From positions 96,001 through 160,000 of IMG/VR virus record IMGVR_UViG_3300035182_002389: a stretch of DNA of 64,000 bases, one strand, 5' to 3'. Below, piece after piece: positions 16,998 to 54,927 of this stretch (position 1 is its first letter; every line of letters begins with the position of its first letter). Below the pieces are notes generated by a model. That model worked only from the letters and a program-made list of their open reading frames with translations, made no database searches and was not told where the DNA came from. The translations under genes were made by a program, and so were the position numbers. The stretch comes from a virus (lineage: Duplodnaviria; Caudoviricetes).

Positions 16998-17160
16998 GTC
17001 TCCCCCTTCCCGTTCCCGTTCCCGTTCCCAGCGTGCCGAAGGCGCGCGTTCCCCCTTCCCGAATCCCGCGCCGAAGGCGCGTCTCGGTCCTGCGAGCCCC
17101 CACAAGACGAGATCGGGAACGCTCGCTGCGCGAGCTGGCAACGGGAACGGGGACGGAAGC
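16998..17160. repeat. inverted pair of family-2 hairpin-(GGGAAC)n elements
   Basis: Minus-strand copy (TTCCCG)n...GCGTGCCGAAGGCGCGC and plus-strand copy CAAGACGAGATCGGGAAC-GCTCGCTGCGCGAGC-TGGCAACGGGAAC. Confidence 0.85.
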
Positions 17161-17511
17161 ATGAGAAAGCTCACCTTCTCGCACGACGACCCGTGGCCGG
17201 ACGGGCTCGTCGTGAAGTTCTACCTCGTGCCCTTTCCTTACCGCCGCAAGCCCGTCATCACCGTGCGCGAGGAGGCGGCAAGGCCGCAGCGCATCGCAGA
17301 CGTCCCCATGACTCTGCTCAACGCGTCACAGCGCGGCGTGACGGACACGGGGCTCGCCAAAGCCCACAAGGTGACCGCCCTTCCTCGCGCGTACGAGGAA
17401 GAGGACGGCCGCTACACCATTGCCGACGGCCACCACCGCGTCGTTGCCGCGTGGCTGCGCGGCGAAGATCAGGTCCGCATTCGCATCATCGGACTGCCTC
17501 GCAAGAAGTGA
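17161..17511 (+). CDS. ParB/Sulfiredoxin-like domain protein
   Basis: GRYTIADGHHRVVAAWLRG. Confidence 0.7.
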   Translation: MRKLTFSHDDPWPDGLVVKFYLVPFPYRRKPVITVREEAARPQRIADVPMTLLNASQRGVTDTGLAKAHKVTALPRAYEEEDGRYTIADGHHRVVAAWLRGEDQVRIRIIGLPRKK

Positions 17512-17657
17512 GACGAGATCGGGAACAGGAACGCGCCTTCGGCGCTGGGAACGGGAACGGGAACGGGCGAGACAAGACGAAAAGGACGGCCTGCGGCCGA
17601 GCACGGGCTTCGCCCGAGGACGCGCCTTCAGCGCGAGGACGGGCTTCGCCCGAGGGT
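17511..17657 (+). repeat. family-2 element followed by a family-3 tandem mini-hairpin array (4 units)
   Basis: GAGACGAGATCGGGAACAGGAAC-GCGCCTTCGGCGC-T(GGGAAC)3GGG, then AG(G/C)AC-hairpin-G units; between convergent genes. Confidence 0.9.
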
Positions 17658-18230
17658 TCAATGATAGTCGTACTCGATGCCCTGTGCGCGCATCGCGCGA
17701 CGCAGGTCTTCGATGCCCATGCGACCGGCCGCGGCGAGATTCTTCTGGAGCCACGCGTAAAAGCGCTCGGCGTCCTTCTTCTTGACGGCGTAGTAGAGGG
17801 TGTCCTGGTAGAGACTCGTGCCGCCTTGCAGAAGCGAGCTTCGATCGAGCGGCCAGCTTGACCGGATCGAGAAGCGGTGCGGGGTCGCGTCGATCGAGAT
17901 GCGGTCGCCGTTGTCGAGCTTGTGGCTCAGGTGAATCGCGGTCGACATCGGCTCGACGTCGATCGCACGAAGCTCGCGCTCCTCGACGTGGAACCCGTAG
18001 CGGTGCGCGAGAGCTTGGGCGTACGAGCGAGCGTGCGCGTACGTCGGCGCTTGCAGCAGGATGTCGCCGAGACGGTCGAGCGCCGACCCCTTCTCCGACG
18101 ACGCGGTGAGCTGCAAGATCCGCTTGCCGCGCTTGCCTGCGAGGGCCGTGTCGGTGACGACCAGCGAGTTCGCATAGCGATGGACACGCAGCGTGCCCAC
18201 GTGTGCGGTACGACCGATTTCGATGGGCAT
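17658..18230 (-). CDS. hypothetical protein
   Basis: 190-aa ORF; stop abuts the family-3 array. Confidence 0.7.
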   Translation of the reverse strand: MPIEIGRTAHVGTLRVHRYANSLVVTDTALAGKRGKRILQLTASSEKGSALDRLGDILLQAPTYAHARSYAQALAHRYGFHVEERELRAIDVEPMSTAIHLSHKLDNGDRISIDATPHRFSIRSSWPLDRSSLLQGGTSLYQDTLYYAVKKKDAERFYAWLQKNLAAAGRMGIEDLRRAMRAQGIEYDYH

Positions 18231-18239
18231 GGGGTCCTG

Positions 18240-19535: not shown

Positions 19536-19559
19536 GGCGTCGAGCGTATTCTTCCGTTC

Positions 19560-19574
19560 GGCTTGCGACAAGTC
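19560..19574. promoter_or_regulatory. palindromic operator-like site
   Basis: GGCTTGCGACAAGTC between divergent genes. Confidence 0.65.
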
Positions 19575-19600
19575 GATAAGGCTCGTGATACGATCCCGGG

Positions 19601-20125
19601 ATGGCGAACACCGGGCTCATCGTCGGCGGCGTCGGCATCGCAGCGCTCGCTGCCTACGCGGCATTCGGCAAAGAGAAGCCGCGATTTGCCGACGAGCCGA
19701 TGCCGCGGCCGGGACCGCGATCTACGGGGCCGACCTCCATGCGCTTGGGCCCGTCCTCGATGCGCTCCAGCGTCGTCCAAGGCGCGCCGCGGCCTCAGCC
19801 GGCCCCCTCCGTCGAGACGCGCGAGCCGGCGTCGGGGAGGCCTACGACCCACAAGCGAGCGTTCCAGATCGGACCCTATCAGGTGTCGATTCAGGACGGC
19901 CCCTACCACTACGCTTCTCCGGGCGAAACCGTCGAGATCGGCATCTTCCTGCGAGGGTCGCTCATCAACCCGAAGCGCATCGGCCTGCACAAGTACGCGA
20001 AGTTCTGGGAGAAGGGCAACAACCCCGTGGGCGTCCACGTGCCCATCGCCGCCGCCAACCAGCTCCTTCGCGACATCGAGCGGCATGCCGGTTACAAGGC
20101 TCAGCCCCTGAAGAGGAAATCGTGA
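19601..20125 (+). CDS. signal-anchored membrane protein
   Basis: LIVGGVGIAALAAYAAFGKEK; GTGATACGAT 6 nt before the ATG. Confidence 0.75.
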   Translation: MANTGLIVGGVGIAALAAYAAFGKEKPRFADEPMPRPGPRSTGPTSMRLGPSSMRSSVVQGAPRPQPAPSVETREPASGRPTTHKRAFQIGPYQVSIQDGPYHYASPGETVEIGIFLRGSLINPKRIGLHKYAKFWEKGNNPVGVHVPIAAANQLLRDIERHAGYKAQPLKRKS

Positions 20126-20754
20126 CGCCTTCCGCGCTCTCGCTGTGGCCGTGGAAGGGGCAAGAGCGATACTGGCCCTCCGTCGCGGGGTTTCATCTCG
20201 AAGCGCGCGGGTACGGCAAGTACGGCGACGCGAGCGCCGTCGAGTACCGCTACGAGGGGCGCGGCAAGCAGTTCGCGAACCTCGTCGTCACGTTCAGCGC
20301 GCACCGCCACGAAGCGACGGACGGCAAGGCGCCGATCGCGTGGAAGGCAGAATCCTACGGGCCGAAGATCGACGGCACCGTCGCGACGCTCGAAGAGATC
20401 CCGAGGAAGCTCGCCGCGCTCGCGCGATGGGCGCTTCAACGCAAGCACGCCGCGAACGCGTACTTCGCCAAAGCTCTGCCGAGCAGCACGCACTGGAACG
20501 TGAACCACGACGTCGAGTTCTTCGGCGCGACGTACAAGAACCCGCACAGCGACGCGTACATGTCCGTCACCTTCGACGATCCCGCGAGCTTGCTCCTCGG
20601 GCAAAGGGACACGGCCCACATCCGATTCGCGCGCGGCAGCGACTATCAGGGGGCGTACGGGACGAGCCAACACATCGTCACCTACGGCACCCTCGACGAG
20701 ATGCGTGGCGTGCTGAAGATCGCCGAGACGCACTGGAAGGCGTGGAACCGATGA
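20122..20754 (+). CDS. hypothetical protein
   Basis: GTGA-coupled ORF, 210 aa. Confidence 0.7.
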   Translation: MTPSALSLWPWKGQERYWPSVAGFHLEARGYGKYGDASAVEYRYEGRGKQFANLVVTFSAHRHEATDGKAPIAWKAESYGPKIDGTVATLEEIPRKLAALARWALQRKHAANAYFAKALPSSTHWNVNHDVEFFGATYKNPHSDAYMSVTFDDPASLLLGQRDTAHIRFARGSDYQGAYGTSQHIVTYGTLDEMRGVLKIAETHWKAWNR

Positions 20755-21377
20755 CCAACCACAAAGAAGCGCTCGCCAACCTCGAATCTCGCGAGGCGAA
20801 GGTCGCGTACGCGATCAAACACAAGCTGCGCGTGTCGGTCCGTCCCACCCGAGATCGGCACAGGTTCGTCTTTCGCATCGTCACGCCCGATCGCCAGGTG
20901 CTCGACACGTTCGACTGCTCTCGGGCGAACTACGCGCGCATCTCCCGAGCCGGCGCGGACATGGACAAAATCAGCAACGAGCCCGTTCGTCGGTGGCGGC
21001 TCTACGAGACCGCCTCGGGCAACTCTCCCGTGCGCGACTACCTCCTCACGCTCACCGAAGACGAGCAGAGCCGCGTCCGCGCGAAGATGCACATCATCAA
21101 GACCCAGGGCCTCTCGAAAGCCATTCGCATGGCCGCAGAAAAGAGCGACCTCTACGAGATCCATGCCGACGCGAGCAATCGAGCCCTGCGGCTCATCTTC
21201 GCTCCCGAAGGCAAGCGGGGCCACGTTCTGCTCGGCCTCAACGCTTTTGAGAAGCGGTCGCAGAAGACGCCGCGCAGTGCCATCGACACCGCTCTCGCCC
21301 GCCTCGCCGACTGGCGCGAACGACACGAGAAGAGGCGCAGGACAAGCTCGCTCGGGCGCGTCTCTGCCCGGCGGTAG
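20751..21377 (+). CDS. RelE/ParE-superfamily (Gp49/DUF891-like) toxin with N-terminal extension
   Basis: WRLYETASGNSPVRDYL...LYEIHA...LRLIFA...LLGLNAFEKRSQKTPRSAIDTALARL. Confidence 0.8.
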   Translation: MTNHKEALANLESREAKVAYAIKHKLRVSVRPTRDRHRFVFRIVTPDRQVLDTFDCSRANYARISRAGADMDKISNEPVRRWRLYETASGNSPVRDYLLTLTEDEQSRVRAKMHIIKTQGLSKAIRMAAEKSDLYEIHADASNRALRLIFAPEGKRGHVLLGLNAFEKRSQKTPRSAIDTALARLADWRERHEKRRRTSSLGRVSARR

Positions 21378-21381
21378 GTCC

Positions 21382-21906
21382 ATGACCATTCGCTTCACCG
21401 TCGACAAGAAGAGGAAGATCGTCCGCGCTGTCTTCGCCAAAGAGAGCGAGCCGCCGACGTATGCACTCGCCTTCTTCTACAAGATCCGCCGCGCCGATCC
21501 CTACCTCGGCATGGGCGTGCGACTGCTCGTGAAGGGAGAGAGGGGTCGCATGGGGGCTATGATCCTTTCTCTCACCACGCCTGCGCCCGGGGAAATGTCC
21601 ACCGCGTGTGAGAAGGACTACCGCGCGCTGAGGCCCGCGCTCTTTCAGGCGCGCACTCCCCTCTACCGCGTTCGGTCCTCGGACGTGCGCTCGCCCTACC
21701 AAGGCTCCGGTTTTGGCGTCCTCATGTACGCCGCGGCCATCGTTCTCGCCGACCTCCAGGGCACCGGCATCGCCGCCGACGAATGCTACATGGAAAAGGG
21801 CTACGAGGGCATCACGAGCGAAGCCGCACGCCGCGTCTGGGACTCGCGACGGCTCGCGAAGATCGCCAACGTGCGCGGCAGCGTCGCGTTCCTTCGACGC
21901 TCCTAG
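21382..21906 (+). CDS. GNAT-like protein, paralog family A
   Basis: VRSSDVRSPYQGSGFGVLMYAAAI...ADEC. Confidence 0.7.
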   Translation: MTIRFTVDKKRKIVRAVFAKESEPPTYALAFFYKIRRADPYLGMGVRLLVKGERGRMGAMILSLTTPAPGEMSTACEKDYRALRPALFQARTPLYRVRSSDVRSPYQGSGFGVLMYAAAIVLADLQGTGIAADECYMEKGYEGITSEAARRVWDSRRLAKIANVRGSVAFLRRS

Positions 21907-22268
21907 CGCCTCGGCCGCTTGAGATCGACGATTTCGAGCACCTTGATGCGATTCGGATCGAACATGATCCAGTTGTCGTCGAGGTGCACGCTGTCGTAGC
22001 CGAGCTGCGTGAGCTGATCGAGCAGGTATCGATCGTACTCTTTCCAGCCCGCGGTCTTCTGCGCCCGGAGCACGACCTTCATCAGATAGTTGAGACTGCC
22101 TGCGCCGCTCTCGCCGCGCAGGATCACGTCCTTGTCCTCGCTGAACCAGAAGATCCCGCCCATCGCGGAGAAGCTCCGCTGAAAGCGTCGAATGGGGTGC
22201 GAGCCGCCATGATAGGCGATAACCGTTCGCTCGGGCGCGAGGCTCGTTCCGAGGGAGGCCTTGCTCAT
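21903..22268 (-). CDS. ADP-ribosyltransferase-fold protein (ART-PolyVal-like)
   Basis: AYHGG...GIFWFSED...LGYDSV...FDPNRIK. Confidence 0.65.
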   Translation of the reverse strand: MSKASLGTSLAPERTVIAYHGGSHPIRRFQRSFSAMGGIFWFSEDKDVILRGESGAGSLNYLMKVVLRAQKTAGWKEYDRYLLDQLTQLGYDSVHLDDNWIMFDPNRIKVLEIVDLKRPRR

Positions 22269-23350
22269 CGACCGGACCCCGGCAGAGGACGGCGCTTCCA
22301 ACCCTTCACGCGGGCGGCGTCTTCGGCGATCTCCTTCTGGATCGTCTCGATGCTGCGGTCGATCTTGCGCATCCGAGAGCCCCACTCGCCGTCGTAGCGC
22401 CGGTCCGAAGGTGTGATGACCTCCTTCTGGCCGCGGTAGTTCTCGATGGTCAGAGAGGGCTTCAGGCGCAGCTCGGCGCGGTTCTCTTGCATCCGCGCCT
22501 CGGTCGGCCGAAGGACCTTCGCGATGTACTCGATCGTGCCTTGCGGGCTCAGCTCAAAAGGCGGGCAGTGAAAACCGAAGCAGGGGCCCGTGTGCCACGA
22601 CATTCCCTGCGCGCCCTTGTAGCGCGTGCCGCTCACGCTCCACCCGTGGCGCATCATCATGCGCTCGTGGAGCTTCACGTTGCTGAAGCACGCGGGGCAA
22701 GTGCCGGTGTCTTCGAGCGAGCGCGCGCTCACGGGACGAAGGGCCGCAGCGACCGACTCTGCCCCAAGCTTCGTGATGGCTTCCGCAGCCTTTGCCTTCA
22801 ACCCGCTCTTGTACGCGAAGGTCCAGAACCTATCGGAGCCCGTTTCGGTGAGCGGCTCGACGCGGCCCGTGTAACTCAGCTTCGGCGTGAAGACGACGTC
22901 TCCCGATTCGGTGCGCACTCGATACCCGGGCATCCCGCGCCACACCTCGCGCAGCTCGACGCCGTGCCTGCCGCCCACGTACGGCCCGATACCTCGCGTC
23001 GCCATCTGCCCCGCGCCGAGCGCGATGGGAGGGCCCTTGCTGCTCCACGAGAGGAGGGTCTGCCGAAGGATCGTGACGAGGGTCGCGGCCTGCTCGCGCG
23101 TGCCGACCAGCGCGATGATCGGGTCCTTGCCGCCGAGGCCGACGAAATCCGCGGCAATGCCCGCGTGCGCGGCGACGGGTTTGAGGAACGCGCCCGCCTT
23201 CTCCCCGTCGAGCGACGCGGGCACGACCTCTTGCCCGATCGCCCAGCCGAGCAAGGGAAGCGCCTCGGCCAAGGCGGCGGGATCGAACCCGCCCTTGATC
23301 CCTTTGGCCGCTTTCGTGAGAAAAGCGAGCGCGTTCTTCGAGAGCGTCAT
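22265..23350 (-). CDS. hypothetical protein with CxxC...H...C zinc site
   Basis: GTCPACF...MRHGW...HTGPCFG. Confidence 0.7.
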   Translation of the reverse strand: MTLSKNALAFLTKAAKGIKGGFDPAALAEALPLLGWAIGQEVVPASLDGEKAGAFLKPVAAHAGIAADFVGLGGKDPIIALVGTREQAATLVTILRQTLLSWSSKGPPIALGAGQMATRGIGPYVGGRHGVELREVWRGMPGYRVRTESGDVVFTPKLSYTGRVEPLTETGSDRFWTFAYKSGLKAKAAEAITKLGAESVAAALRPVSARSLEDTGTCPACFSNVKLHERMMMRHGWSVSGTRYKGAQGMSWHTGPCFGFHCPPFELSPQGTIEYIAKVLRPTEARMQENRAELRLKPSLTIENYRGQKEVITPSDRRYDGEWGSRMRKIDRSIETIQKEIAEDAARVKGWKRRPLPGSGR

Positions 23351-23360
23351 GGCGGGTCTT

Positions 23361-24008
23361 TCAGAGGAAGGCGGCGACGGGGTAGCTGCCGAGATAGTCG
23401 CTCTGCACGGCGTCGTAGTCGATGTTGATCCCCGCCGCGATCGTTCGGTTGCCGGGGTAGAGCTGGAGCATCTGGTAGCCGCGCACGTCGACGTCGGGCG
23501 CGCGGCCGGCCGTCTTCCAGTAGCGCGAGACCGAGAGCGAGTGGTAGAGCTGGCTGCTCGTCAGCGGCACGCCGGGCTCGCAGTAGATGCCGAGGGCCGC
23601 GCCGAACATCCCGCCCGCGACTGCCCCCTTGTACCAGGCGTTCGCGTAGGCGATGCACGCCTCCGCCGTCCCTGCATTGGCCAAATCCAACCAGAGACAA
23701 CCTCCCGCGGGATAGCCCATCGAGATGGCGTACGAAGCTGCGGCTTGGCCGTCCGCGAACCCGATCGACTCGCTCCAGCCGCTCGTGCGCCCGAACTGCA
23801 CGAGCATCACGCCGAGCCCCGCTTGGGTGAGCGCGGCCAGCTCCGTTTTTCCGATCGCGAACGGCGACGACTGCCCCGCGAGCGGGACGTACCGCACGCC
23901 GAACTTCATGCCGGCCTTCACGAGCGTTGCGGCCTGGGCCGCGCTGAGCGCCTCGATCGTGTCGAACCCGAGCATGCCCACGGAGAGAGGCTTCAGGGAA
24001 AGGGTCAT
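23361..24008 (-). CDS. DUF1906-like glycoside hydrolase (GH25-related TIM barrel)
   Basis: GFDT...GMKFGVRYV...GFADGQAA...GYP..LWLDL; GGAGG SD. Confidence 0.75.
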   Translation of the reverse strand: MTLSLKPLSVGMLGFDTIEALSAAQAATLVKAGMKFGVRYVPLAGQSSPFAIGKTELAALTQAGLGVMLVQFGRTSGWSESIGFADGQAAASYAISMGYPAGGCLWLDLANAGTAEACIAYANAWYKGAVAGGMFGAALGIYCEPGVPLTSSQLYHSLSVSRYWKTAGRAPDVDVRGYQMLQLYPGNRTIAAGINIDYDAVQSDYLGSYPVAAFL

Positions 24009-24048
24009 CGTCGTTCCTCCTTCAATCCACCGCGGCCGATCGTACCAC

Positions 24049-24063
24049 GGCTTATCGCAAGCC
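24049..24063. promoter_or_regulatory. palindromic operator-like site
   Basis: GGCTTATCGCAAGCC between divergent genes. Confidence 0.65.
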
Positions 24064-24091
24064 GAGGCGATTCGTGCGACCATTGCGATCG

Positions 24092-24598
24092 ATGAACGCG
24101 TTTCGCTACACCCTCGACAAGACGAGGCGCATCGCGCGCGTACAGCTCTCGGGCGACGACCAGGCCGTCGCCCTCGCGTCGTTCGAGAAGTCGGAGGAGT
24201 TCCCGTTCGGCAAGATGTGCGTTCGGCTTCTTCGGCGCGGCAGCGCGATGTACGTCGGCGAGATGCAGCTCAACCCTCGTAGGCCTCACGTCCGCGACAT
24301 GGACCCTACCTGTCTCAACCACTACGAGCGGCTCCGGCCGGCCCTCTACCGCGCCAACGTCGCCCTCTACCGCGTGAGGTCTTCGGACATCTACCTCACC
24401 CATCTCTGGCGCCACGGCTACGGCGTGCTCATGTACGCGGCGGCGCTTCTGCTCGCCGACATGCAAGGGACCGGCATCGGATCGGATGAGTGCTTCTACG
24501 GCTCGACGAGTCGGCGCGCCGGGCGCGTCTGGGAATCGCGGCGCCTCGCTTCGATCGCCGACGTGATGGGCGACATCGCGTTTCTCAAGCGGCGCTGA
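24092..24598 (+). CDS. GNAT-like protein, paralog family A
   Basis: LRPALY...YRVRSSDI...WRHGYGVLMYAAAL..ADMQGTGIGSDEC; close paralog of 21382. Confidence 0.7.
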   Translation: MNAFRYTLDKTRRIARVQLSGDDQAVALASFEKSEEFPFGKMCVRLLRRGSAMYVGEMQLNPRRPHVRDMDPTCLNHYERLRPALYRANVALYRVRSSDIYLTHLWRHGYGVLMYAAALLLADMQGTGIGSDECFYGSTSRRAGRVWESRRLASIADVMGDIAFLKRR

Positions 24599-24616
24599 GG
24601 TGATACGGTGACCGCC

Positions 24617-24952
24617 ATGGGCAAGAGCCTCCAGAAGTACGCGTCGAGCTTGCGGCGCCCGCGGTTCGTGCACGACTGCAACCGCTGCATCTTCCTCGGA
24701 GGCTCCACGATCGAGGGCGGTCGGCCGGCCGACTTCTACTGGTGCCCCGATCGGCGCAACGAGACCATGAGCAGCATGATCGCGCGCTACGGCGACGACG
24801 GGCCCGAGTATCTCTCGTCCTCGCCGCCCGAGGCCTTCGCCGACCCGCTGTACCTGCTCCAGAAGCGGAAATGGTACAGGACTCTTCTGCGTCGCGCGCA
24901 TCGCGCGGGGCTCTACGCGAACAAGCACAACTACAACCTCTCGGAGCCTTGA
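24617..24952 (+). CDS. hypothetical protein
   Basis: HDCNRCIFLG motif; GTGATACGGT 7 nt before the ATG. Confidence 0.65.
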   Translation: MGKSLQKYASSLRRPRFVHDCNRCIFLGGSTIEGGRPADFYWCPDRRNETMSSMIARYGDDGPEYLSSSPPEAFADPLYLLQKRKWYRTLLRRAHRAGLYANKHNYNLSEP

Positions 24953-25494
24953 TGAGCGACCTCAAGCAAATCCAAGAGGCCATCTGGGGGGATCGCGAGA
25001 CCCTCTCACACCTCGAAGGCGCCTACCGAAACTTCTTTCAGACGCGCGACGTCGGCGTCTTGCGACCGTCCAAGACCCTCGTGTACGCGCTCGCGAAGAA
25101 GTACGGCGCCAGCTTCGACGTCGTCCAGGCCGCCATCGGCAAGCTCGTCGCCAACGTCCAGTACGAGATGATGGTCGACTACGTCGCGCGTCTGCCCCAC
25201 ATCCGAGGCCATCTTCGCGAACTCGCCCTTCTCACCTACTCGCCCGATGGCGCGCTCGGGTCGATGAAGAAGCTCACGCCCGAGGTCGAAGAGAGCCTCC
25301 GCTCTTTCTACGCGCCCCTTCGCTGGAAGAGCCCCATGGGCTTGGAGCTGCTCAGCGGCGCGGTCTCGAAGGAGAAGCGCAAGCTCCAAGGCCTTTCGAG
25401 CATGGGCCGAACCGCTCCTTCACCGTTCTCGGAGCCCGCGTCTCTCGGTCCCGTCACCTACCCCGCGCGCCGCAAACCTTCCAGCTCAAACTGA
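24952..25494 (+). CDS. hypothetical protein
   Basis: TGATG-coupled ORF. Confidence 0.65.
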   Translation: MSDLKQIQEAIWGDRETLSHLEGAYRNFFQTRDVGVLRPSKTLVYALAKKYGASFDVVQAAIGKLVANVQYEMMVDYVARLPHIRGHLRELALLTYSPDGALGSMKKLTPEVEESLRSFYAPLRWKSPMGLELLSGAVSKEKRKLQGLSSMGRTAPSPFSEPASLGPVTYPARRKPSSSN

Positions 25495-25505
25495 ATCGGA
25501 GTCAC

Positions 25506-25727
25506 ATGGACAAGCTCACTCTTCTCGGTCTTGGCCTCATGGGCGCAGGCGTCGCGACCAAGCTCATCGAGCCGCCCAAGATGGGACAGTCCGCAGAAGT
25601 CATGCGCGGATACGGCGCGCTCGAAATCGTTCTCATCGGCGGCGGCGCGTCGCTCGCCTTCTACGGCGCGTTCGTGAAGGGCAAGACGCCCATGCTCACG
25701 AGCGGACCGCCGTCGTCCTACCGCTGA
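25506..25727 (+). CDS. small two-TM membrane protein
   Basis: Two hydrophobic Gly-rich helices. Confidence 0.65.
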   Translation: MDKLTLLGLGLMGAGVATKLIEPPKMGQSAEVMRGYGALEIVLIGGGASLAFYGAFVKGKTPMLTSGPPSSYR

Positions 25728-25731
25728 ACCG

Positions 25732-26076
25732 TCAGTAGTTGTCGATGTAGCGCTTCGCTTCGCGCAACGTCGCCAGGTACTTGCCGCCGCCCGAGTCGGG
25801 GTAGTGAACGCACCAGCCGTGCTTGTCGTGCTCGATCTCCCACCCCTTGTAGATGGTGATCTTCCCACGCTCAGGCACAAACGTGTAGCTCGGGAGCCGT
25901 GCTGTGAGAGACGCCTTTCGGGCGGCCTCCTCACGCTCCGCGGCTTCGCGCGCAGGGCGCTCTGCCTCCCAGCGGAGGTCGGCGAGTCGATCGGCCTCAT
26001 CGGCCGCGGCCAGCTCCGCGGGCGTGTAGCGTGCCGAAGAGACGGAGCGGCTCACAGGACGCTTTCGGATCGTCAT
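25732..26076 (-). CDS. hypothetical protein
   Basis: Charged helix plus a WEIEH...WCVH...EAKRYID C-terminal domain. Confidence 0.6.
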   Translation of the reverse strand: MTIRKRPVSRSVSSARYTPAELAAADEADRLADLRWEAERPAREAAEREEAARKASLTARLPSYTFVPERGKITIYKGWEIEHDKHGWCVHYPDSGGGKYLATLREAKRYIDNY

Positions 26077-26080
26077 CGAG

Positions 26081-26440
26081 TCATCTCCCCGAGGAGTGAA
26101 CATTGAGCGTCACCATCACGACCTTCTCGCCGCCGTAGTCGTACGTGTCGACGCTCGGCGCATACTTCGCGACGGCCCCTCGCGCGTCCGTGTGGACCTT
26201 GCGCACGCCGGCGGCCCTCAGCGTTTTTGCGATCCAGTTGGCCGCGCGCAGCTCCAACTTCGCGTCGCCCGAGTCGACGCGGATGCCGCCCGCGTCGTAC
26301 CCTTCGACGTGCAGGGTCTCGGCCGAGAGTGCGACGAGGCGCACGCGGCTGCGAGGCTTCATGTAGCCGGCCTTCACCATCGCAGCGTCGAGCCTGCGTT
26401 GAAGTTCCATGCGGGCGAGGATGGTTTCGGCGCGACTCAT
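26081..26440 (-). CDS. hypothetical protein
   Basis: 119-aa ORF; TACGCT 6 nt before the ATG. Confidence 0.65.
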   Translation of the reverse strand: MSRAETILARMELQRRLDAAMVKAGYMKPRSRVRLVALSAETLHVEGYDAGGIRVDSGDAKLELRAANWIAKTLRAAGVRKVHTDARGAVAKYAPSVDTYDYGGEKVVMVTLNVHSSGR

Positions 26441-26466
26441 CCTCGAAGCGTAGACGATCCCGATCC

Positions 26467-26480
26467 GCTTGTCGCAAGCC
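26467..26480. promoter_or_regulatory. palindromic operator-like site
   Basis: GCTTGTCGCAAGCC. Confidence 0.65.
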
Positions 26481-26490
26481 GCACAGCACG

Positions 26491-26615
26491 GAGAACGAGA
26501 ATCGCTCGGGGGCTACGCGCCCCCGAACCCCGCGCCACCTGCGGCGGGGCTATTGTCGGGGCTCTGTCCCGAACCCCGCTGAGGACGCTCACGGCGCGCC
26601 CTCAGACTCCCGCCG
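26491..26615 (-). repeat. family-1 four-hairpin element, copy 6
   Basis: Most diverged copy, with compensatory stem changes (TCGGGG..TCCCGA) and a TAC loop. Confidence 0.9.
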
Positions 26616-26627
26616 TCATAACAACTC

Positions 26628-27197
26628 CTACGCGTGCGATGCGACAGCGTAAGCCGCGTCGAAGGTCGGCTGATCCCAGCCCACGTAGATCGCGCCGTTG
26701 AGGTCGATGACCGGGATCGCGGTCGCTCCGCTCGGGGGGTTGCCGAGCTTCTTGAACAGCTCGTACGACGTCGTCGGATCCGCGAGGTCGCCGAATGCGT
26801 ACGGCAGACCGCGGCCCTCGAAGTACGCCCTCGCGCGTTTGGTGCGCGGGCAGCTCGTCGTGCCGTAGATGGTCAGCGGGACGACGACCTGCGGAAGAAC
26901 GGGCGACGGAGGCGGAGGCGGAGCGGGCGCCTGAACGGGCACCGGCACGACCGCAGGGGTCAGAGAGCACGACGGCACCTTGTCGGTCGGGCCTCCCGAA
27001 GACGGCACGCCGTCCAAACCCGTGAAGGTCCAAGACCCGTCCGAGTGCACCTCGATCGAACCTCCGTCCGTGGTTGCGAGGGTCGCGACGACCCAAGGCA
27101 TCGGCGCCGGCTCGGCCCGAGGAACGAACCTTTCGTAGCTGTAGCCATACGCCCCGACGGACGCGTGGGTCTTTCCGCAAGAGGCGCAGGAGGGCAT
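26628..27197 (-). CDS. glutaredoxin/NrdH-like domain protein (monothiol C-P-R-T)
   Basis: LTIYGTTSCPRTKRARAYF...TAIPVIDLNG..YVGWD; alternative start 27209. Confidence 0.8.
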   Translation of the reverse strand: MPSCASCGKTHASVGAYGYSYERFVPRAEPAPMPWVVATLATTDGGSIEVHSDGSWTFTGLDGVPSSGGPTDKVPSCSLTPAVVPVPVQAPAPPPPPSPVLPQVVVPLTIYGTTSCPRTKRARAYFEGRGLPYAFGDLADPTTSYELFKKLGNPPSGATAIPVIDLNGAIYVGWDQPTFDAAYAVASHA

Positions 27198-27223
27198 GCG
27201 CGAGAGCATAGACGATCTTCGCA

Positions 27224-27238
27224 GACTTGTCGCAAGCC
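27224..27238. promoter_or_regulatory. palindromic operator-like site
   Basis: GACTTGTCGCAAGCC between divergent genes. Confidence 0.65.
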
Positions 27239-27293
27239 GTGTAGAAGGCGCCGCGAAGCATTCCTCGCGCCCGCGCCATGATAGGATCCGCCC

Positions 27294-27635
27294 ATGGCCG
27301 ACCCGACTGCCGATCCGACGCCCGCACCTGCCGACCCGACGCCCTCGCCCTCCGACCCTATTCCGGCCCCACTGCCCACGGTCGATCCGGCGAAGATCCT
27401 CCCCTTCGTCAACGCGCTGCGAGCGCTCGCGACGGGGCGCAAGGGCGTTATCGTGCTCGGGGCCATCGCCTTCTGCATCGTCGTCTACTTCAAGGACCCG
27501 ACCAAGCTCACGCAACTCCTCGCGTTCCTCGGCGTGCTGCTCCCTTCGTTCTTCGGCGCGCAGGCGTACGAAGACGGCAAGAAGCAAGAGGCGCTCGCCA
27601 CTGCGAAGCGGTTCGCCACACCGGGCCAAGGGTGA
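27294..27635 (+). CDS. two-TM membrane protein (holin-like)
   Basis: Two TM helices, charged C-terminus; TAGGAT 6 nt before the ATG. Confidence 0.6.
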   Translation: MADPTADPTPAPADPTPSPSDPIPAPLPTVDPAKILPFVNALRALATGRKGVIVLGAIAFCIVVYFKDPTKLTQLLAFLGVLLPSFFGAQAYEDGKKQEALATAKRFATPGQG

Positions 27636-27636
27636 G

Positions 27637-28104
27637 ATGGCTTCGCGCATGTCTGACGCCGACGCGGCTCGCGTCGTCGACGCCATCCGACGAGCCCCCT
27701 ACCGGGCCCGCATGGGAGGGTACTGCTACCCGTGGGCGATCGCGATTCGACGTGCTCTATTGCCCCAGGGCCGTCTTTGCATCGCCGTCAACGACCCCAT
27801 CTTCGTCGCGAGCCGAAACAAACGCCTCGTCGGACATGCCGCGGTTCGATTCAAAGACCGATGGTTCGACGGTGAAGGGGAGACGTCCCTCGGCGCTCTG
27901 AAGGATTGGGCCATGCTCGACGAGCATGACCCGGCCTACGCTCTCGCCGCGGGCGTCGACCTCACACGGTGGGCCTTGCTCGCGGACAAGGTCGGCGTCT
28001 ACGAGGTCACGGAGAAGGAGCTGATCGCGCTCGTTCCCAGCGCCCGAATCGACGCTGCTGACATCGAGAAGGCGATCAAGCGCGTCCGCCCTGAGATGCG
28101 CTGA
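27637..28104 (+). CDS. papain/transglutaminase-like fold protein (Cys-His-Asp)
   Basis: GYCYPWAIAI...GHAAVRF...WFDGEG. Confidence 0.5.
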   Translation: MASRMSDADAARVVDAIRRAPYRARMGGYCYPWAIAIRRALLPQGRLCIAVNDPIFVASRNKRLVGHAAVRFKDRWFDGEGETSLGALKDWAMLDEHDPAYALAAGVDLTRWALLADKVGVYEVTEKELIALVPSARIDAADIEKAIKRVRPEMR

Positions 28105-28155
28105 AGAACGAGCGAAGATGATGTAGAGTCCCACCTCGGGGAAGGCTCGGGAGAC

Positions 28156-29124
28156 ATGGCCGAACATCTCATTTTCGACGGGCACAACCTTGCCGTGCGG
28201 TGCGCGCACGCCATCGAGGCGGCAGGGCTCACGAACGCGGACGGCGTGCCGACCGGCGAAGCGTTCGCCTTCCTCAAGGCCCTCGGCGGCTTCAAGACGC
28301 GCTTCCCACTCGCGAAGGTCACCGTCGTGTGGGACGGGTCGAGCCACAAGCGCAAGGCCGTCTTCGACGGGTACAAGGCCAGCCGCGGGATGCTCCGCAA
28401 GACCTTCCCCGTCGAGTACCTGAAGGGTCTTCTGCCCTTCCTTTCCGTTCGTCAGGCCATGAGCCCGACCGACGAGGCGGACGACGTCATCGGCGTCCTC
28501 GTGCGCGTTCGCTCCAGCGCAGAGCGAGATCGGGAACGCTCGCCTTCGGCGAGCTGGGAACGGGAACGGGAACGGGAAGAAGACCGCTTCACCATCGTCA
28601 CGACCGACTGCGATCTCCTTCAAACCGTCACGCCGAAGGTCCGCGTCCTCATGCCGCCAGCGGGCGCTGCAAAAGATCGCCGCGAGACCTTGTACGGCGA
28701 GATCGAGGTGCTTGCCGAGTACGGCGTGCCTGTCGGCCAGCTCCTCGACCTTCGCGCGCTCGCGGGAGACGTCTCCGACGAGATCCCCGGCGTGCCCGAG
28801 CTGGGGCCCAAGCGCGCCGCAAAACTCCTCACCTTCCACGGATCACTCGACGCCGTCTTCGAGGAGGCGCTGCGTGACAAGGCTCGCAAGCGCAAAGGCA
28901 TCCTCGCCTCGCCGATGACGGACCTTCAGCGCAAGAACCTGCGCGAGCACGAAGGAATCGTTCGACGCAATCTTGCGATCATGCGCCTCTCGGACGTCGA
29001 CGAGATCACGTACACCGAAGGCGCTTTCAAGGCTCTTCAAGCGGCCGTGCTTCTCCAGAAGCTCGACATCAAGGTCGACCCCATCCTCGACTTGTTCTTC
29101 CCGAAGCAGACCGCGTTCGCGTAG
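28156..29124 (+). CDS. 5'-3' exonuclease / flap endonuclease (Pol I N-terminal-like)
   Basis: IFDGHNL, VVWDG...RK...YKASR, EADDVIG, IVTTDCDLLQ, LAGDVSDEIPGVPELGPKRAAKLL (H3TH). Confidence 0.95.
   Translation: MAEHLIFDGHNLAVRCAHAIEAAGLTNADGVPTGEAFAFLKALGGFKTRFPLAKVTVVWDGSSHKRKAVFDGYKASRGMLRKTFPVEYLKGLLPFLSVRQAMSPTDEADDVIGVLVRVRSSAERDRERSPSASWEREREREEDRFTIVTTDCDLLQTVTPKVRVLMPPAGAAKDRRETLYGEIEVLAEYGVPVGQLLDLRALAGDVSDEIPGVPELGPKRAAKLLTFHGSLDAVFEEALRDKARKRKGILASPMTDLQRKNLREHEGIVRRNLAIMRLSDVDEITYTEGAFKALQAAVLLQKLDIKVDPILDLFFPKQTAFA
28522..28578 (+). repeat. family-2 element inserted in frame in the exonuclease
   Basis: GAGCGAGATCGGGAAC-GCTCGCCTTCGGCGAGC-T(GGGAAC)3GGGAA; encodes ERDRERSPSASWERERERE. 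Confidence 0.9.
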
Positions 29125-29351
29125 CGGTGCTTCAGGGCGTACGCTTCCTTTCGAGGTAAGCATGCCCAACAGTCGAACGCGCATTTGCTCACTCACGTGT
29201 CCCGAGCGCGTCGATTGCGAGGTGTGCGGCAAAAAGCTCTGCCACGCGCACGAGCCTCACCACGCAGATGGCTCCGTCGCAAGTTTTTCCGACGGCCACT
29301 ACCTTACGCCGACAGGCGTCGTCTGCGTCGCGCGTCACGCGCGAGGATGAG

Positions 29352-29633
29352 TCAGTCGTCTTCATCGACGGAAATCCACCATCCCTCGGCGTGCTTGAAG
29401 CCCGCAGGGACGTGCCAGACGTAGAGCGGGTCGCCTTTGCGCGATCGCCCCGTCGTCAAAGAGGGGCGAACCGAGACGACGTAGTACGTGCGCGTCGGAT
29501 CTTTGCCGGCGACGCTCTTCGCGAGCGCTGCGAGCAGGCGCTCTTCGTTGCCTGCGCCAACCTCATGCGGACCGTCCACGATGGTCGAGTTCTTTACGCC
29601 GTGGACGACGACCGCGAGGGCTCTTTTCGACAT
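29352..29633 (-). CDS. hypothetical protein
   Basis: 93-aa ORF; TAAAAT 6 nt before the ATG. Confidence 0.7.
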   Translation of the reverse strand: MSKRALAVVVHGVKNSTIVDGPHEVGAGNEERLLAALAKSVAGKDPTRTYYVVSVRPSLTTGRSRKGDPLYVWHVPAGFKHAEGWWISVDEDD

Positions 29634-29650
29634 GGGCGTATTTTACTTTG

Positions 29651-29756
29651 AGACGAGACAAGAGCGAGACTCAGACGAAAAGAACGACCTTCGGTCGAGC
29701 ACGGGCTTCGCCCGAGGACGCGCCTGCGGCACGAGGACGCGCCTTCGGCGCGAGGA
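29651..29756 (+). repeat. family-3 tandem mini-hairpin array (4 units) with purine-rich leader
   Basis: AGAAC-GACCTTCGGTC-G, AGCAC-GGGCTTCGCCC-G, AGGAC-GCGCCTGCGGCAC-G, AGGAC-GCGCCTTCGGCGC-G; abuts the TAA of 29757-30485. Confidence 0.9.
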
Positions 29757-30485
29757 TTAGCTTAGCCAGTTCTGCACGGCCTGAAAGAGCCGAGGGGCCT
29801 TCCTCTGCATCGCGGAAGGGTCGAGCGCCCACCACGCGGCGGCATCCATCGCGCCCTCGAAGTTGCCCGCGAGCGCGTGGTAGGCCGTGATGGGCCGGTT
29901 CATCGACCCAAGGACTGCAATGACCTCTCGACCCGCCTCGGGGTTCAACGAGAAGGCGGCGTGGGCAGCTTCGTGCGCTGCGACCTTGCTGCCGCCGTGC
30001 ATCCGCGAGCCTGCGATCTCCGTCATCACGGGCAGGTGCGCGTTGATGACCGTCGCGCGGCCCGCGTGACACTCGCCAGAAGAGGTCGAAGAGCCCTCGA
30101 TGACGAGGAACTTGATGCGGATGCCGCGAAAGACGCGCCGCGCCACGATCATCGCTTCGCGTAGCAGCTCGCCGCCGCCGTCCATCGGGCGCCAGAGCCT
30201 CGCTTTTCCGAGCACTGGAGCCCACTTCTTCCAGCGCTCGACGTCGAGCGTCCACTTCGCGAGCGCGCGCGGCGGTCCGAGCACGGCGCCCACCGACCCG
30301 TTGCGACCTTGGTAGACGAGGTAGCCGTCCTTCAGGTCGTAGCCTGCGATGGCCGGCGCGAACGTGTCTTCGGTGTCGAAGGACTCCGCGTAGACCTTGC
30401 CGACGCCTTCGACGCGCACCCATCCCGCGGAGCCTTCCAGGCTCTTCTTCGCTCGCTTGCGAAGGGTGTCAGGGGTGAGCGGCAT
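29757..30485 (-). CDS. zincin-like metallopeptidase-domain protein
   Basis: AAHEAAHAAF HExxH and downstream FEG. Confidence 0.6.
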   Translation of the reverse strand: MPLTPDTLRKRAKKSLEGSAGWVRVEGVGKVYAESFDTEDTFAPAIAGYDLKDGYLVYQGRNGSVGAVLGPPRALAKWTLDVERWKKWAPVLGKARLWRPMDGGGELLREAMIVARRVFRGIRIKFLVIEGSSTSSGECHAGRATVINAHLPVMTEIAGSRMHGGSKVAAHEAAHAAFSLNPEAGREVIAVLGSMNRPITAYHALAGNFEGAMDAAAWWALDPSAMQRKAPRLFQAVQNWLS

Positions 30486-30550
30486 CTTCTGCTCATTCTG
30501 CGTACGTCAGGGCTCGCTGTCGATGACTTTCAGTAAGCCAGCCGCCCGAA

Positions 30551-30614
30551 ACAAGATCGGGAAACGCTCGCTGCGCTCGCTGGGAACGGGAACGGGAACG
30601 GGAACGGGAGCGGG
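30551..30614 (+). repeat. family-2 element (hairpin degenerate)
   Basis: ACAAGATCGGGAAAC-GCTCGCTGCGCTCGC-T(GGGAAC)4GGGAGCGGG. Confidence 0.85.
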
Positions 30615-30657
30615 CAAGGCTTTGCCTCGCCCGCGTCGATCGGCGTAGACTCACGCC

Positions 30658-31758
30658 ATGCCGTACATCAAAGGCGCCTCCGAAGAGTCCGTCGCACAAA
30701 ATGTGGATTTTGCCCTTCGCGAAGGAAAAAGCCACGATCAGGCGATGGCCATCGCGCGCTCCTACGCGAACCGCGTGCTCAAGGCACGCCGCCACGTCTG
30801 GACCCAAGAGCGCGAGCGCATCTTCCAGGTCGGCGTTCGGATGGGCGTCGCGAAGTACCACGGCAAACGAGCGCGCCGCGACGCTCCGCCGAAGCATGTC
30901 CGCAAAGCTCGCGTCTTCGTTCGCCTCTCCTACCCCCTCGGCGACGGGACGCAGAAGCAGCAAGAGGCCGTCGCGCGAAAAGCCGACATGCGCATCTACG
31001 AAGCTGCCGGGGGCCGTCTCACGACCAAATCGGGCGGCGCGTATGGCCGCCTCGGGCATCGCTCGCACTCGTTCGAGTACGCGACCCCCGACAGCGCCCA
31101 GCGCGTGCTCCACGCCATCGAGAAGCTCAAGATCAAGGGCCTGAAGATCGGCATCGTCTCGATCGTATGGGACGAATCGGGCCGCGCGCAGTCGACCTCG
31201 CTGACCTCCTTGCCGGCCGCGAAGCCAGCCAAGAAGCCGGCCAAGAAGCCGGCGAAGGCCGCGAAGAAGCCGGCCAAGAAGAAGCCGGCGAAAGCCGCGA
31301 AGAAGAGGCCCGCGAAGGCCGCGAAGAAGCCTGCGAAGGCCGCGAAGAAGAAGCCCGCGAAGGCCGCGAAGAGGCCGGCGAAGGCTGCGAAGAAGCCGGT
31401 CAAGACCTCGACCAAGACCTCGACCAAGAGGACCTCCGCCAAGAAGGTCGTCCCGACCTTCGAGGTGTGGGGCTGGAAGGGCAACAAGGGTCACAAGCTC
31501 TCGACCCACACCCGCGAGACCAACGCCATCGAAGCGGCGAAAAAGATCAAGGGCTACGACAAGGTCCGAGTGCAAGTTCACATGGGGCGCGAAACCAAGA
31601 GCTTCACCGTGCAGGGGCCGCGCGGCGGCGTCGGCCGCGTCGGCGGCACGATGCCGAAGTCGCGCGGACCTGCGAAGAAGACGACCAAGAAGACGGCCAA
31701 GAAAGCGGCAAAGAAGTCTGCCAAGACCACGCGCCGGCAGAGCGTGCCGCCGTTCTGA
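30658..31758 (+). CDS. histone H1-like Lys/Ala/Pro-rich DNA-condensing protein
   Basis: About ten PAKAAKK/PAKK repeats and a basic C-terminal tail; TAGACT 6 nt before the ATG. Confidence 0.8.
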   Translation: MPYIKGASEESVAQNVDFALREGKSHDQAMAIARSYANRVLKARRHVWTQERERIFQVGVRMGVAKYHGKRARRDAPPKHVRKARVFVRLSYPLGDGTQKQQEAVARKADMRIYEAAGGRLTTKSGGAYGRLGHRSHSFEYATPDSAQRVLHAIEKLKIKGLKIGIVSIVWDESGRAQSTSLTSLPAAKPAKKPAKKPAKAAKKPAKKKPAKAAKKRPAKAAKKPAKAAKKKPAKAAKRPAKAAKKPVKTSTKTSTKRTSAKKVVPTFEVWGWKGNKGHKLSTHTRETNAIEAAKKIKGYDKVRVQVHMGRETKSFTVQGPRGGVGRVGGTMPKSRGPAKKTTKKTAKKAAKKSAKTTRRQSVPPF

Positions 31759-46181: not shown

Positions 46182-46252
46182 GCAAGACGAGATCGGGAAC
46201 GCGCCTTCGGCGCTGGGAACGGGAACGGGAACGGGAACGGGAACGGGAACGG
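46182..46252 (+). repeat. family-2 element with (GGGAAC)6
   Basis: GCAAGACGAGATCGGGAAC-GCGCCTTCGGCGC-T(GGGAAC)6GG; fills almost the whole intergenic gap. Confidence 0.95.
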
Positions 46253-46257
46253 ACAAG

Positions 46258-49864: not shown

Positions 49865-49936
49865 TGGGACGTAGCCAAGTTGGTAAGGCAGGGGATTTTG
49901 ATTCCCCCACCGCGGGTTCAAGTCCCGCCGTCTCTA
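49865..49936 (+). tRNA. trnQ: tRNA-Gln (anticodon UUG)
   Basis: Cloverleaf: TGGGACG acceptor, AGCCAAGTTGGTAAGGC D-arm, GGGGA-TTTTGAT-TCCCC anticodon arm, GCGGG-TTCAAGT-CCCGC T-arm; no encoded CCA. Confidence 0.9.
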
Positions 49937-49987
49937 CTGCCGCCGAGGCGGCTTTCCACAAGCCAACGAGAAGGGTACTCTTCCACC

Positions 49988-54283: not shown

Positions 54284-54286
54284 TCG

Positions 54287-54865: not shown

Positions 54866-54927
54866 GGCGTCAGCCTACTCCATCGACGATTGCGGAAGAA
54901 GAGAGAGGGCGTGCTACGATTGCCGCC

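What the first reader, a model, noticed from the sequence alone, without database searches (positions are those of the whole stretch)
28522..28578. Family-2 element translated in frame inside the 5'-3' exonuclease
Seen: exactly 57 nt (19 codons, ERDRERSPSASWERERERE) lie between EADDVIGVLV..SA and EDRFTIVTTD, a loop that is short in Pol I and T5-type FEN domains. All catalytic motifs remain intact. The insert is a complete hairpin-(GGGAAC)3GGG element. Known: Rickettsia palindromic elements are the classic case of repeats tolerated inside proteins. Inferred: independent evidence that the element is mobile. Its host gene encodes an enzyme that processes ssDNA flaps and hairpins, which hints at a mechanistic link.
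Basis: partly seen in the sequence, partly recalled or inferred. Interest (0 to 1): 0.75.

Follow-up and report, generated by a model that had tools for sequence, protein, structure and literature searches.

The report
Hairpin repeat inserted in viral exonuclease
A 57-base copy of a small repeated DNA element sits in frame inside the flap-endonuclease gene of a 202-kb uncultured bacterial virus. It adds a 19-residue charged loop that a 94%-identical relative lacks, so it is a clean viral example of a known thing: selfish repeats tolerated inside proteins.

Summary
Window 28522-28578 is a 57-nt unit made of a GAGCGAGATC leader, GGGAAC, a 7-bp hairpin, T, (GGGAAC)3 and GGGAA. It lies in frame in a 322-aa 5'-3' exonuclease/FEN gene (28156-29124).

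- **Empty site:** a 94%-identical metagenomic ortholog is 303 aa and lacks exactly these 19 residues. More distant homologs and Taq polymerase I also have the short loop.
- **Family:** about 21 units at 13 loci in the 202.5-kb virus record, mostly intergenic. The FEN copy is one arm of what elsewhere forms three-hairpin palindromic composites.
- **Second case:** a composite copy adds 52 residues in frame to a metallophosphoesterase, so I see no special link to FEN.
- **Gene still works:** the catalytic acids are intact, dN/dS between two insert-bearing alleles is 0.12, and the AlphaFold model keeps the FEN fold with the insert as a low-confidence helical hairpin.
- **Slippage:** one allele carries an extra hexamer (+2 aa).
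- **Best reading:** an RPE/REP/MITE-like repeat, read through as a tolerated Glu/Arg loop.
- **Not shown:** how it moves, and whether the insert is translated.

This scan reported the family and both coding insertions before, on another window of the same genome. Verdict: a new variant of a known kind, of moderate interest.

The parts
28156..29124 (+). Host gene: 5'-3' exonuclease / flap endonuclease, 322 aa (P0001)
   Evidence: Pfam PF02739 and PF01367. The AlphaFold model has pLDDT 86.9, and its best Foldseek match is M. smegmatis FenA 6c33, TM 0.75. Invariant acidic residues D8, D60, E107, D110, D151, D153, D205 and D208 are present.
28522..28578 (+). 57-nt inserted unit, 19 codons, ERDRERSPSASWERERERE
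   Evidence: Absent as one 19-residue gap from the 94%-identical P0002 and from all more distant homologs. GC3 is 0.58 against 0.84 for the rest of the gene.
28522..28537 (+). Leader GAGCGAGATC plus the left GGGAAC hexamer
   Evidence: The leader (G/A)AGACGAGATC is shared by the right-arm units at 17103, 17508, 30549 and 46183 of the window and by others in the genome. The L005 allele has a second GGGAAC here.
28538..28554 (+). Hairpin: 7-bp stem GCTCGCC/GGCGAGC with a TTC loop
   Evidence: Read directly from the sequence. RNAfold of the 17-mer gives -11.6 kcal/mol. It encodes the turn SPSAS of the predicted helical hairpin.
28556..28578 (+). (GGGAAC)3 GGGAA hexamer array. Positions 28556-28576 fit the G-quadruplex motif G3N3G3N3G3N3G3.
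   Evidence: TRF: period 6, 3.8 copies, 100% matches. Quadruplex-motif scan. It encodes WERERERE.
17002..17157 (.). Composite palindromic copy: a left arm (minus-strand unit 17002-17068) and a right arm (17103-17157) with a central hairpin
   Evidence: The right arm ends 6 nt before an ATG.
17508..17567 (+). Solo right-arm unit between convergent genes
30549..30619 (+). Solo right-arm unit in a divergent intergenic spacer. It is absent from a relative.
   Evidence: A contig of run X5 joins 30548 to 30620 with CCCT between. The P0002 contig has a spacer of 105 nt against 172 nt here, a difference of 71 minus 4.
46183..46253 (+). Solo right-arm unit with six hexamers, 7 nt upstream of an ATG

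Best explanation
The 57 nt are a recently acquired copy of a small, gene-less, dispersed repeat of this virus lineage. The repeat has a leader, a GC hairpin and a (GGGAAC)n microsatellite arm. This copy landed in a naturally variable loop of the flap-endonuclease gene: the helix-to-strand connection between the EADD motif and the DxD motif. Its length is a multiple of three, and the unit has no stop codon in any of the six frames. It is therefore simply read through and adds a Glu/Arg-rich helical hairpin that protrudes from the fold, while the enzyme stays functional. Shown: the insertion, the empty site, membership of the repeat family, an intact gene under purifying selection, and hexamer slippage in 6-nt steps. 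Inferred: that the insert is translated, that it lies on the surface away from the active site, and that it is selfish or neutral. Unknown: the copying mechanism. No transposase was found, so my guess is that it is copied by the replication and recombination machinery of the virus or host, or by a host enzyme acting in trans.
For: - **Empty site.** P0002 is 303 aa against 322 aa, 94% identical, with a single 19-residue gap.
- **Outgroups.** P0003, other homologs and Taq Pol I all have the short loop, so this was an insertion and not a deletion.
- **Family.** About 21 units at 13 loci share the leader, hairpin and hexamer arm.
- **Second presence/absence difference.** A copy 2 kb away is missing in a relative. 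A contig of run X5 skips 71 nt, and the spacer arithmetic of the P0002 contig (105 against 172 nt) agrees.
- **Second in-frame case.** A 52-aa insert in a metallophosphoesterase is absent from all homologs.
- **Purifying selection.** dN/dS is 0.12 between two insert-bearing alleles, and three of the four codon differences aligned within the insert are synonymous. Two of them, TCG>TCT and GAA>GAG, break the hairpin stem and a hexamer.
- **Foreign composition.** GC3 of the insert is 0.58 against 0.84 for the rest of the gene.
- **Fold kept.** The model has pLDDT 86.9, with the insert at 50-56 and predicted as helix, turn, helix. The FEN fold is confirmed.
- **Readable anywhere.** Units are open in all six frames.
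- **Tolerant loop.** Another homolog, P0012, also has extra residues at this loop.
Against: No RNA or protein data exist, so translation of the insert is not shown. The DNA of the empty-site contig could not be fetched, so the exact junction and any target duplication are unknown. At the one DNA-level empty site, 4 nt (CCCT) stand in place of the element, which fits replacement by recombination better than clean transposition. No Y1 transposase gene is present. Intergenic units point towards the adjacent gene and often abut its ribosome-binding site, which could mean a cis-regulatory role rather than pure selfishness. The folding energy of the region is no better than that of shuffled sequence.
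Confidence: 0.8

Rival explanations
1. The family is a cis-regulatory cassette: a 5'-UTR hairpin plus a G-rich or quadruplex tract next to the ribosome-binding site, or a binding array for a viral protein. On this reading the FEN copy has been co-opted as an internal control point, for example to pause ribosomes, modulate mRNA stability or start an internal transcript.
For: Five intergenic units end within 20 nt of a co-oriented start codon with a Shine-Dalgarno-like motif, and two more within 70 nt. In solo units the G-rich strand is always the sense strand. The family supplies 11 of the 32 quadruplex motifs in a genome that is otherwise depleted of them, against about 57 expected. The window allele keeps a perfect hairpin and perfect hexamers.
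Against: No sigma-70-like promoter and no terminator coincides with the units. Several units have no gene start downstream. A close relative does without both the FEN copy and the 30549 copy. In the L005 allele the hairpin and one hexamer are broken by synonymous changes. No in-frame start codon follows the FEN copy before the DxD motif. Three units lack hairpin pairing.
Confidence: 0.12
2. The insert is not part of the protein.
For: Lead only: note e1-5323166 reports a frame-breaking hairpin in the polymerase gene of this genome, which I did not test. The insert contains a stable hairpin.
Against: The insert is in frame, has no stop codon and has no matched take-off and landing codon next to a stop. 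Its length variant differs by 6 nt and keeps the frame. Substitutions between alleles are mostly synonymous in the reading frame. No Rfam family and no intron-like structure is found, and 57 nt is too short for group I or II introns.
Confidence: 0.04
3. The element targets the FEN gene or is mechanistically tied to it, either because FEN processes the element's hairpins and flaps during copying, or because the insert adapts FEN to do so.
For: Only the coincidence that the host gene encodes a structure-specific nuclease.
Against: The other coding insertion is in a CpdA/Icc-like metallophosphoesterase. 11 of 13 loci are intergenic. The close relative has a FEN without the insert. The insert lies in the connection between the helix after EADD and the strand that carries DxD, which by the topology of this fold is at the end of the sheet opposite the active site. 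That last point is inference and was not measured.
Confidence: 0.04

Closest known systems
Rickettsia palindromic elements (RPEs)
   Same: Both are small palindromic repeats dispersed in one lineage. Both are found in intergenic DNA and, in frame, inside unrelated enzyme genes, where they are read through as extra peptide segments compatible with the fold (review PMC10969869, read).
   Different: RPEs are about 100-150 bp, belong to an intracellular bacterium and mostly sit inside genes. This unit is 57 nt (composites are about 150 nt), carries a hexamer microsatellite arm, lives in a bacterial virus and is mostly intergenic (2 of 13 loci are in genes). There is no sequence similarity.
REP / REPIN elements mobilised by RAYT (Y1) transposases
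   Same: Both have short GC-rich hairpins, occur as single units and as inverted doublets, are mostly extragenic and are gene-less (PMC3733652, listed).
   Different: This family has no GTAG or CGTC tag and no Y1 transposase gene in the genome. It has hexamer arrays. Two loci lie inside genes.
Bacterial MITEs
   Same: Both are non-autonomous, dispersed, vary in presence between close relatives and are sometimes fused in frame to ORFs (PMC10969869).
   Different: No terminal inverted repeats bound a solo unit. No target-site duplication could be shown. At the one DNA-level empty site, 4 nt are replaced.
Quadruplex-forming G-rich simple repeats of Xanthomonas and Nostoc (GGGNATC, GGGGA(C/T)T)
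   Same: Both are G3-containing 6-7-nt repeats with variable copy number. They are mostly non-coding, lie close to ORF ends, and typically have four or more G-tracts (PMC4692102).
   Different: Here the array is attached to a conserved leader and hairpin, and the whole unit is what moves. Quadruplex formation has not been tested.
PeSL promoter/stem-loop cassettes of T4-type phages
   Same: Both are dispersed intergenic stem-loop motifs of a large phage that mark places where close relatives differ (PMC2839356 and PMC4122927, found).
   Different: PeSLs carry a recognisable early promoter and mediate gene shuffling, and they have not been reported inside ORFs. No promoter motif was found here.
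Phage T4 gene 60 translational bypass element
   Same: Both are short hairpin-containing inserts inside a replication-related phage gene.
   Different: Gene 60 has a stop codon, matched GGA codons and a break in the frame. The FEN insert is in frame and open, so no bypass is needed.

Membership tests
5'-3' exonuclease / FEN (the host gene) | N-terminal PIN-like domain and H3TH domain with the conserved acidic metal ligands | tested here: met
   PF02739 and PF01367 score above their cut-offs. Invariant D8, D60, E107, D110, D151, D153, D205 and D208 are present. Foldseek TM is 0.75 to FenA 6c33.
Rickettsia palindromic elements | In-frame insertion into unrelated protein genes, with the host protein kept intact | tested here: met
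   FEN (19 aa) and a metallophosphoesterase (52 aa) carry inserts. dN/dS is 0.12.
Rickettsia palindromic elements | Sequence membership in RPE families 1-10 and occurrence in Rickettsia | not tested
   No RPE sequence was compared. The GGGAAC-hairpin unit of this 65% GC virus has no Rfam match, and an exact pattern found no copy in 185,579 reference genomes.
REP/REPIN-RAYT | A cognate Y1 (RAYT) transposase gene in the same genome | tested here: not met
   PF01797 has no match in the 202.5-kb record at E up to 1. A host-encoded enzyme cannot be excluded.
REP/REPIN-RAYT | A GTAG or CGTC tag at the 5' end of the palindrome | tested here: not met
   The hairpins are flanked by GGGAAC and T-GGGAAC, with no such tag.
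MITE | Terminal inverted repeats | tested here: inconclusive
   Composite copies are long imperfect palindromes with (GTTCCC)n and (GGGAAC)n arms. Solo units such as the FEN copy have no inverted ends.
MITE | Target-site duplication | tested here: inconclusive
   Only one DNA-level empty site was seen (X5 contig), and it shows CCCT in place of the element and no duplication. The DNA of the FEN empty site is not available.
G-quadruplex-forming simple repeats | Four or more G3 tracts with short loops | tested here: met
   28556-28576 fits the motif, and 11 family arrays fit it genome-wide.
G-quadruplex-forming simple repeats | Quadruplex folding shown biophysically | not testable with these tools
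   This needs CD or NMR of the oligonucleotide.
PeSL-type mobile regulatory cassette | A promoter consensus joined to the stem-loop | tested here: not met
   No sigma-70-like site lies at any unit in 16500-31500. Promoters of other types are not covered by that scan.
Translational bypass (T4 gene 60 type) | A take-off codon followed by a stop, a matched landing codon and an interrupted frame | tested here: not met
   There is one open frame of 322 codons with no stop in the insert.

The most novel reading that the evidence does not exclude
The family may be a virus-borne element built to survive translation. Its 6-nt repeat unit keeps the frame under slippage, and its T-poor and A-poor strands keep all six frames open. 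That would let it colonise coding sequence in a genome that is about 90% coding. It would be copied by the virus's own replication and repair machinery through its hairpin or quadruplex structures rather than by a transposase. The coding copies, including the one in FEN, would then be a source of new surface loops on viral enzymes.
Probability: 0.2. Interest if true: 0.7.

Novelty: new variant of a known kind. Interest (0 to 1): 0.45.

Why it matters
This case carries the RPE phenomenon into a large bacterial virus. It rests on a filled and an empty allele at 94% identity and on a length variant made by hexamer slippage inside the gene. That pair offers a natural experiment on how much insertion a FEN scaffold tolerates, and a tractable pair of alleles for testing whether such inserts are neutral, harmful or useful. 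It also warns annotators that charged low-complexity loops in viral enzymes can be repeat DNA. The result does not open a new class of system, and this scan had already reported the family on another window of the same genome.

Tried and rejected
- **DNA of the empty-site contig.** The P0002 contig (ENA ERZ1426824) and the 324-aa allele contig have no DNA on hand. The junction is therefore known only at protein level.
- **Scans for close FEN relatives.** IMG/VR gave nothing. The JGI metagenome scan gave only the partial insert-bearing allele L004/L005.
- **Reads.** Contigs of four runs were laid. No contig skipping 28522-28578 was listed. No RNA holder is listed for this stretch, so nothing can be said about expression.
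- **Element elsewhere.** The exact pattern GGGAACGC-N7-15-GCTGGGAACGGGAAC gave two chance matches in 185,579 reference genomes and none in IMG/VR. The 14-mer leader gave 117 IMG/VR loci, none of which matches the family profile. The virus with the 41%-identical FEN (L001/L002) has no unit in 19 kb.
- **Rfam.** Nothing at gathering score except a tRNA, and only chance-level hits at E up to 1.
- **Structure significance.** The MFE of the 79-nt region is no better than shuffles for RNA (z = 0.5) or DNA (z = -0.5). I dropped my early idea of a cUUCGg tetraloop, because the pairing gives a TTC triloop.
- **Mobilising genes.** There is no Y1_Tnp and no PF05635 in the genome.
- **Target motif.** CAAGA(C)-like words flank several units, but they are absent from the one DNA-level empty site, so I treat them as part of the element and not as a duplication.
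- **Rejected readings.** Deletion in P0002 is rejected because the outgroups have the short loop. Assembly artefact is rejected because five independent contigs carry the allele. Pseudogene is rejected because dN/dS is 0.12 and the motifs are intact. Intein and intron are rejected because the insert is too short and has no motifs.

Full report
**What is there**

The window is bases 96001-160000 of a single 202,518-bp virus record from IMG/VR. The record is 65% G+C and CheckV estimates it 94% complete.

The ORF at 28156-29124 (+) encodes 322 aa. It matches Pfam 5_3_exonuc_N (E 3e-21) and 5_3_exonuc (E 5e-14). The N-domain match falls into two stretches that break at residue 120.

Codons 123-141 (28522-28578) read ERDRERSPSASWERERERE. 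The DNA consists of:
- a leader, GAGCGAGATC;
- one GGGAAC;
- a 7-bp hairpin, GCTCGCC/TTC/GGCGAGC;
- a T;
- (GGGAAC)3 and GGGAA.

The hexamer tract is a perfect period-6 array. GGGAACGGGAACGGG with up to 2 mismatches occurs 21 times in the window against 0.3 expected.

**Is it an insertion?**

Yes. The protein search returned P0002, 303 aa, from an ENA metagenome contig with the same gene order. It is 94% identical over aligned columns and differs by a single gap of exactly 19 residues at this spot.

- P0003 (41% identical), the more distant homologs and Taq polymerase I all have the short connection here. The long form is therefore derived.
- The 322-aa allele lies on four further contigs from four samples, two JGI metagenomes and two Logan runs. 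A third allele (P0036/P0037, 97% identical) carries the insert with one more GGGAAC on its left side, adding 2 aa.

**The family**

A profile built from clear copies finds about 21 units at 13 loci in the genome.
- At four intergenic loci (genome 19.9, 27.9, 81.2 and 113.0 kb) and inside the phosphoesterase gene at 54.5 kb, units stand back to back. Each forms an imperfect palindrome of about 150 nt with (GTTCCC)n and (GGGAAC)n arms and a central hairpin.
- The FEN copy is a solo right arm, like the copies at window 17508, 30549 and 46183.
- Stems differ between units (GCTCGC, GCGCC, GCGCGCC, and the hybrid GCTCGCC in FEN) yet still pair. Three units carry GCTCGC...GCTCGC, a direct repeat that cannot pair.
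- Taken as a whole, the 79-nt region around the FEN copy folds no better than shuffled sequence. Claims about structure should therefore stay modest.
- (GGGAAC)3GGG fits the G-quadruplex motif. The family supplies 11 of the 32 such motifs in a genome that has fewer than shuffles do, about 57.
- Six of the seven units checked are open in all six reading frames. This follows largely from their T-poor and A-poor strands.

**Evidence that copies come and go**

The FEN empty site is the first case. The second is the copy at 30549-30619. A contig of run X5 joins 30548 to 30620 with CCCT between. The spacer between the orthologous genes on the P0002 contig is 105 nt, against 172 nt here, which is exactly 71 minus 4.

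By the same spacing arithmetic, the P0002 lineage also lacks the mini-hairpin array at 29650-29756 (a gap of 8 nt against 123 nt) and a 58-aa ORF.

The family was not found in:
- a virus whose FEN is 41% identical;
- IMG/VR;
- 185,579 reference genomes, by an exact pattern;
- Rfam.

**A second coding insertion**

Genome 54173-55180 (L012:10173-11180) encodes a 335-aa calcineurin-like phosphoesterase. A composite copy adds 52 residues to it (...VPVPVP...ETGTGTGNG...), and these are absent from every homolog of 260-290 aa.

The hexamers are read there in frames other than the one used in FEN. This argues against any special tie between the element and FEN. It fits random insertion followed by survival of copies that keep the frame and fall in loops.

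An earlier follow-up of this scan (e1-5323167) reported the same two coding copies from another window. I reached them independently.

**Is the gene still good?**
- All conserved acidic residues are present.
- Between the two insert-bearing alleles dN/dS is 0.12 (27 synonymous and 10 non-synonymous differences).
- Within the insert, three of the four aligned codon differences are synonymous. Two of them (TCG>TCT and GAA>GAG) break the hairpin stem and a hexamer. This weakly favours selection on the peptide rather than on the DNA or RNA structure.
- GC3 of the insert is 0.58 against 0.84 for the gene, so the insert is compositionally foreign.
- AlphaFold2 on 34 sequences gives pLDDT 86.9. The insert scores 50-56 and is drawn as an extension of helix 108-128, a turn at SPSA and a helix at 133-140. 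The model matches M. smegmatis FenA (TM 0.75), ExoIX, T5 FEN and Taq.
- The insertion point is the connection from the helix after EADD to the strand that carries DxD. In this parallel alpha/beta fold that connection should lie at the end of the sheet opposite the active site. This is inference from topology and was not measured.
- One other homolog, P0012, also has extra residues here.

**How it most likely works**

The best reading (0.8) is a small non-autonomous repeat that was copied into a tolerant loop and is read through as a Glu/Arg-rich helical hairpin. Hexamer slippage now changes its length in steps of two residues.

How it is copied remains open:
- there is no Y1 transposase;
- there is no demonstrable target duplication;
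- at the one DNA-level empty site, 4 nt are replaced.

These points fit copying by recombination or template switching at least as well as transposition.

**Rivals**

*Regulatory cassette (0.12).* Five intergenic units end within 20 nt of a co-oriented start codon, and the G-rich strand is always the sense strand. Against this, no promoter or terminator pattern fits, relatives do without the copies, and no start codon follows the FEN copy before the DxD motif.

*Removal from the mRNA or ribosomal bypass (0.04).* This is unnecessary because the frame is open. It is worth a test only because another note claims a frame-breaking hairpin in this virus's polymerase gene, which I did not test.

*A mechanistic tie to FEN (0.04).* This has no support.

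**Comparison with known elements**

The insert works like a Rickettsia palindromic element (PMC10969869) and resembles REP/REPIN doublets and MITEs. It fails the REP tests (tag, RAYT gene), and the MITE tests are inconclusive.

Its arm resembles the quadruplex-forming simple repeats of Xanthomonas and Nostoc (PMC4692102). Its scattered intergenic copies recall the PeSL cassettes of T4-type phages (PMC2839356 and PMC4122927).

**Verdict**

This is a new variant of a known kind, in an unusual host: a large, probably myxobacterial, virus. The closest phosphoesterase homologs include Minicystis, and the host assignment comes from earlier notes.

Noticed in passing
L012:10173-11180 (genome 54173-55180, outside the window): A calcineurin-like phosphoesterase of 335 aa carries a composite copy of the same family in frame. 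The 52 extra residues include VPVPVP and ETGTGTGNG and are absent from all homologs of 260-290 aa.
   Followed up: yes
window 29125-29760: Gene spacing on its contig suggests that the 303-aa-allele lineage also lacks a 58-aa ORF (29189-29365, minus strand) and the mini-hairpin array at 29650-29756 (a gap of 8 nt against 123 nt). The window's lineage therefore appears much richer in repeats over 3 kb.
   Followed up: partly
window 17583-17655 and 29650-29756: Tandem arrays of 17-19-nt mini-hairpins (GC stem, TTC or TGC loop) are spaced by GAGGAC or GAGCAC. They are preceded by a GAGAC-rich leader like that of the family-2 units, so the repeat families of this virus share modules.
   Followed up: no
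window 30564-30578; genome 19996-20010 and about 81360-81374: In three units the right stem arm reads GCTCGC instead of GCGAGC. The central dinucleotide is inverted, which turns the inverted repeat into a direct repeat and abolishes the hairpin. The same change recurs at three loci.
   Followed up: partly
window 28441-28835 against L005: The divergence between the window and allele L005 is mosaic. It is roughly 7% across the insert-bearing middle of the FEN gene and about 1% over the next 2 kb, which suggests a recombination boundary inside the gene.
   Followed up: no
genome 49-66, 3788-3805, 4078-4095 and 11342-11359 (outside the window): There are four copies of another G-quadruplex-type word, GGGAGGGT(T/C)(T/C)GGGAGGGG, all on the plus strand in the left end of the genome.
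   Followed up: no
window 30475-30696: In the metagenome runs, summed contig depth over the hexamer array is 10 to 1000 times that of the virus (up to 6725 against about 4). Some loose ends carry the GACGAGATCGGG leader in contexts not present in this genome. Related strains or other genomes in these samples therefore hold similar units.
   Followed up: partly
window 15005-15099: ARAGORN calls a 95-nt tRNA-Pro(CGG) that Rfam does not confirm and that overlaps a 12-nt tandem repeat (15048-15110). It is probably a false call. The tRNA-Gln at 49865-49937 is confirmed by both tools.
   Followed up: no
window 16920-17002 (minus strand): The left arm of the composite copy is followed, after GGGGGAG and a 7-nt spacer, by a GTG and a short hydrophobic ORF of about 21 codons. 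This may be a small membrane peptide or nothing.
   Followed up: no
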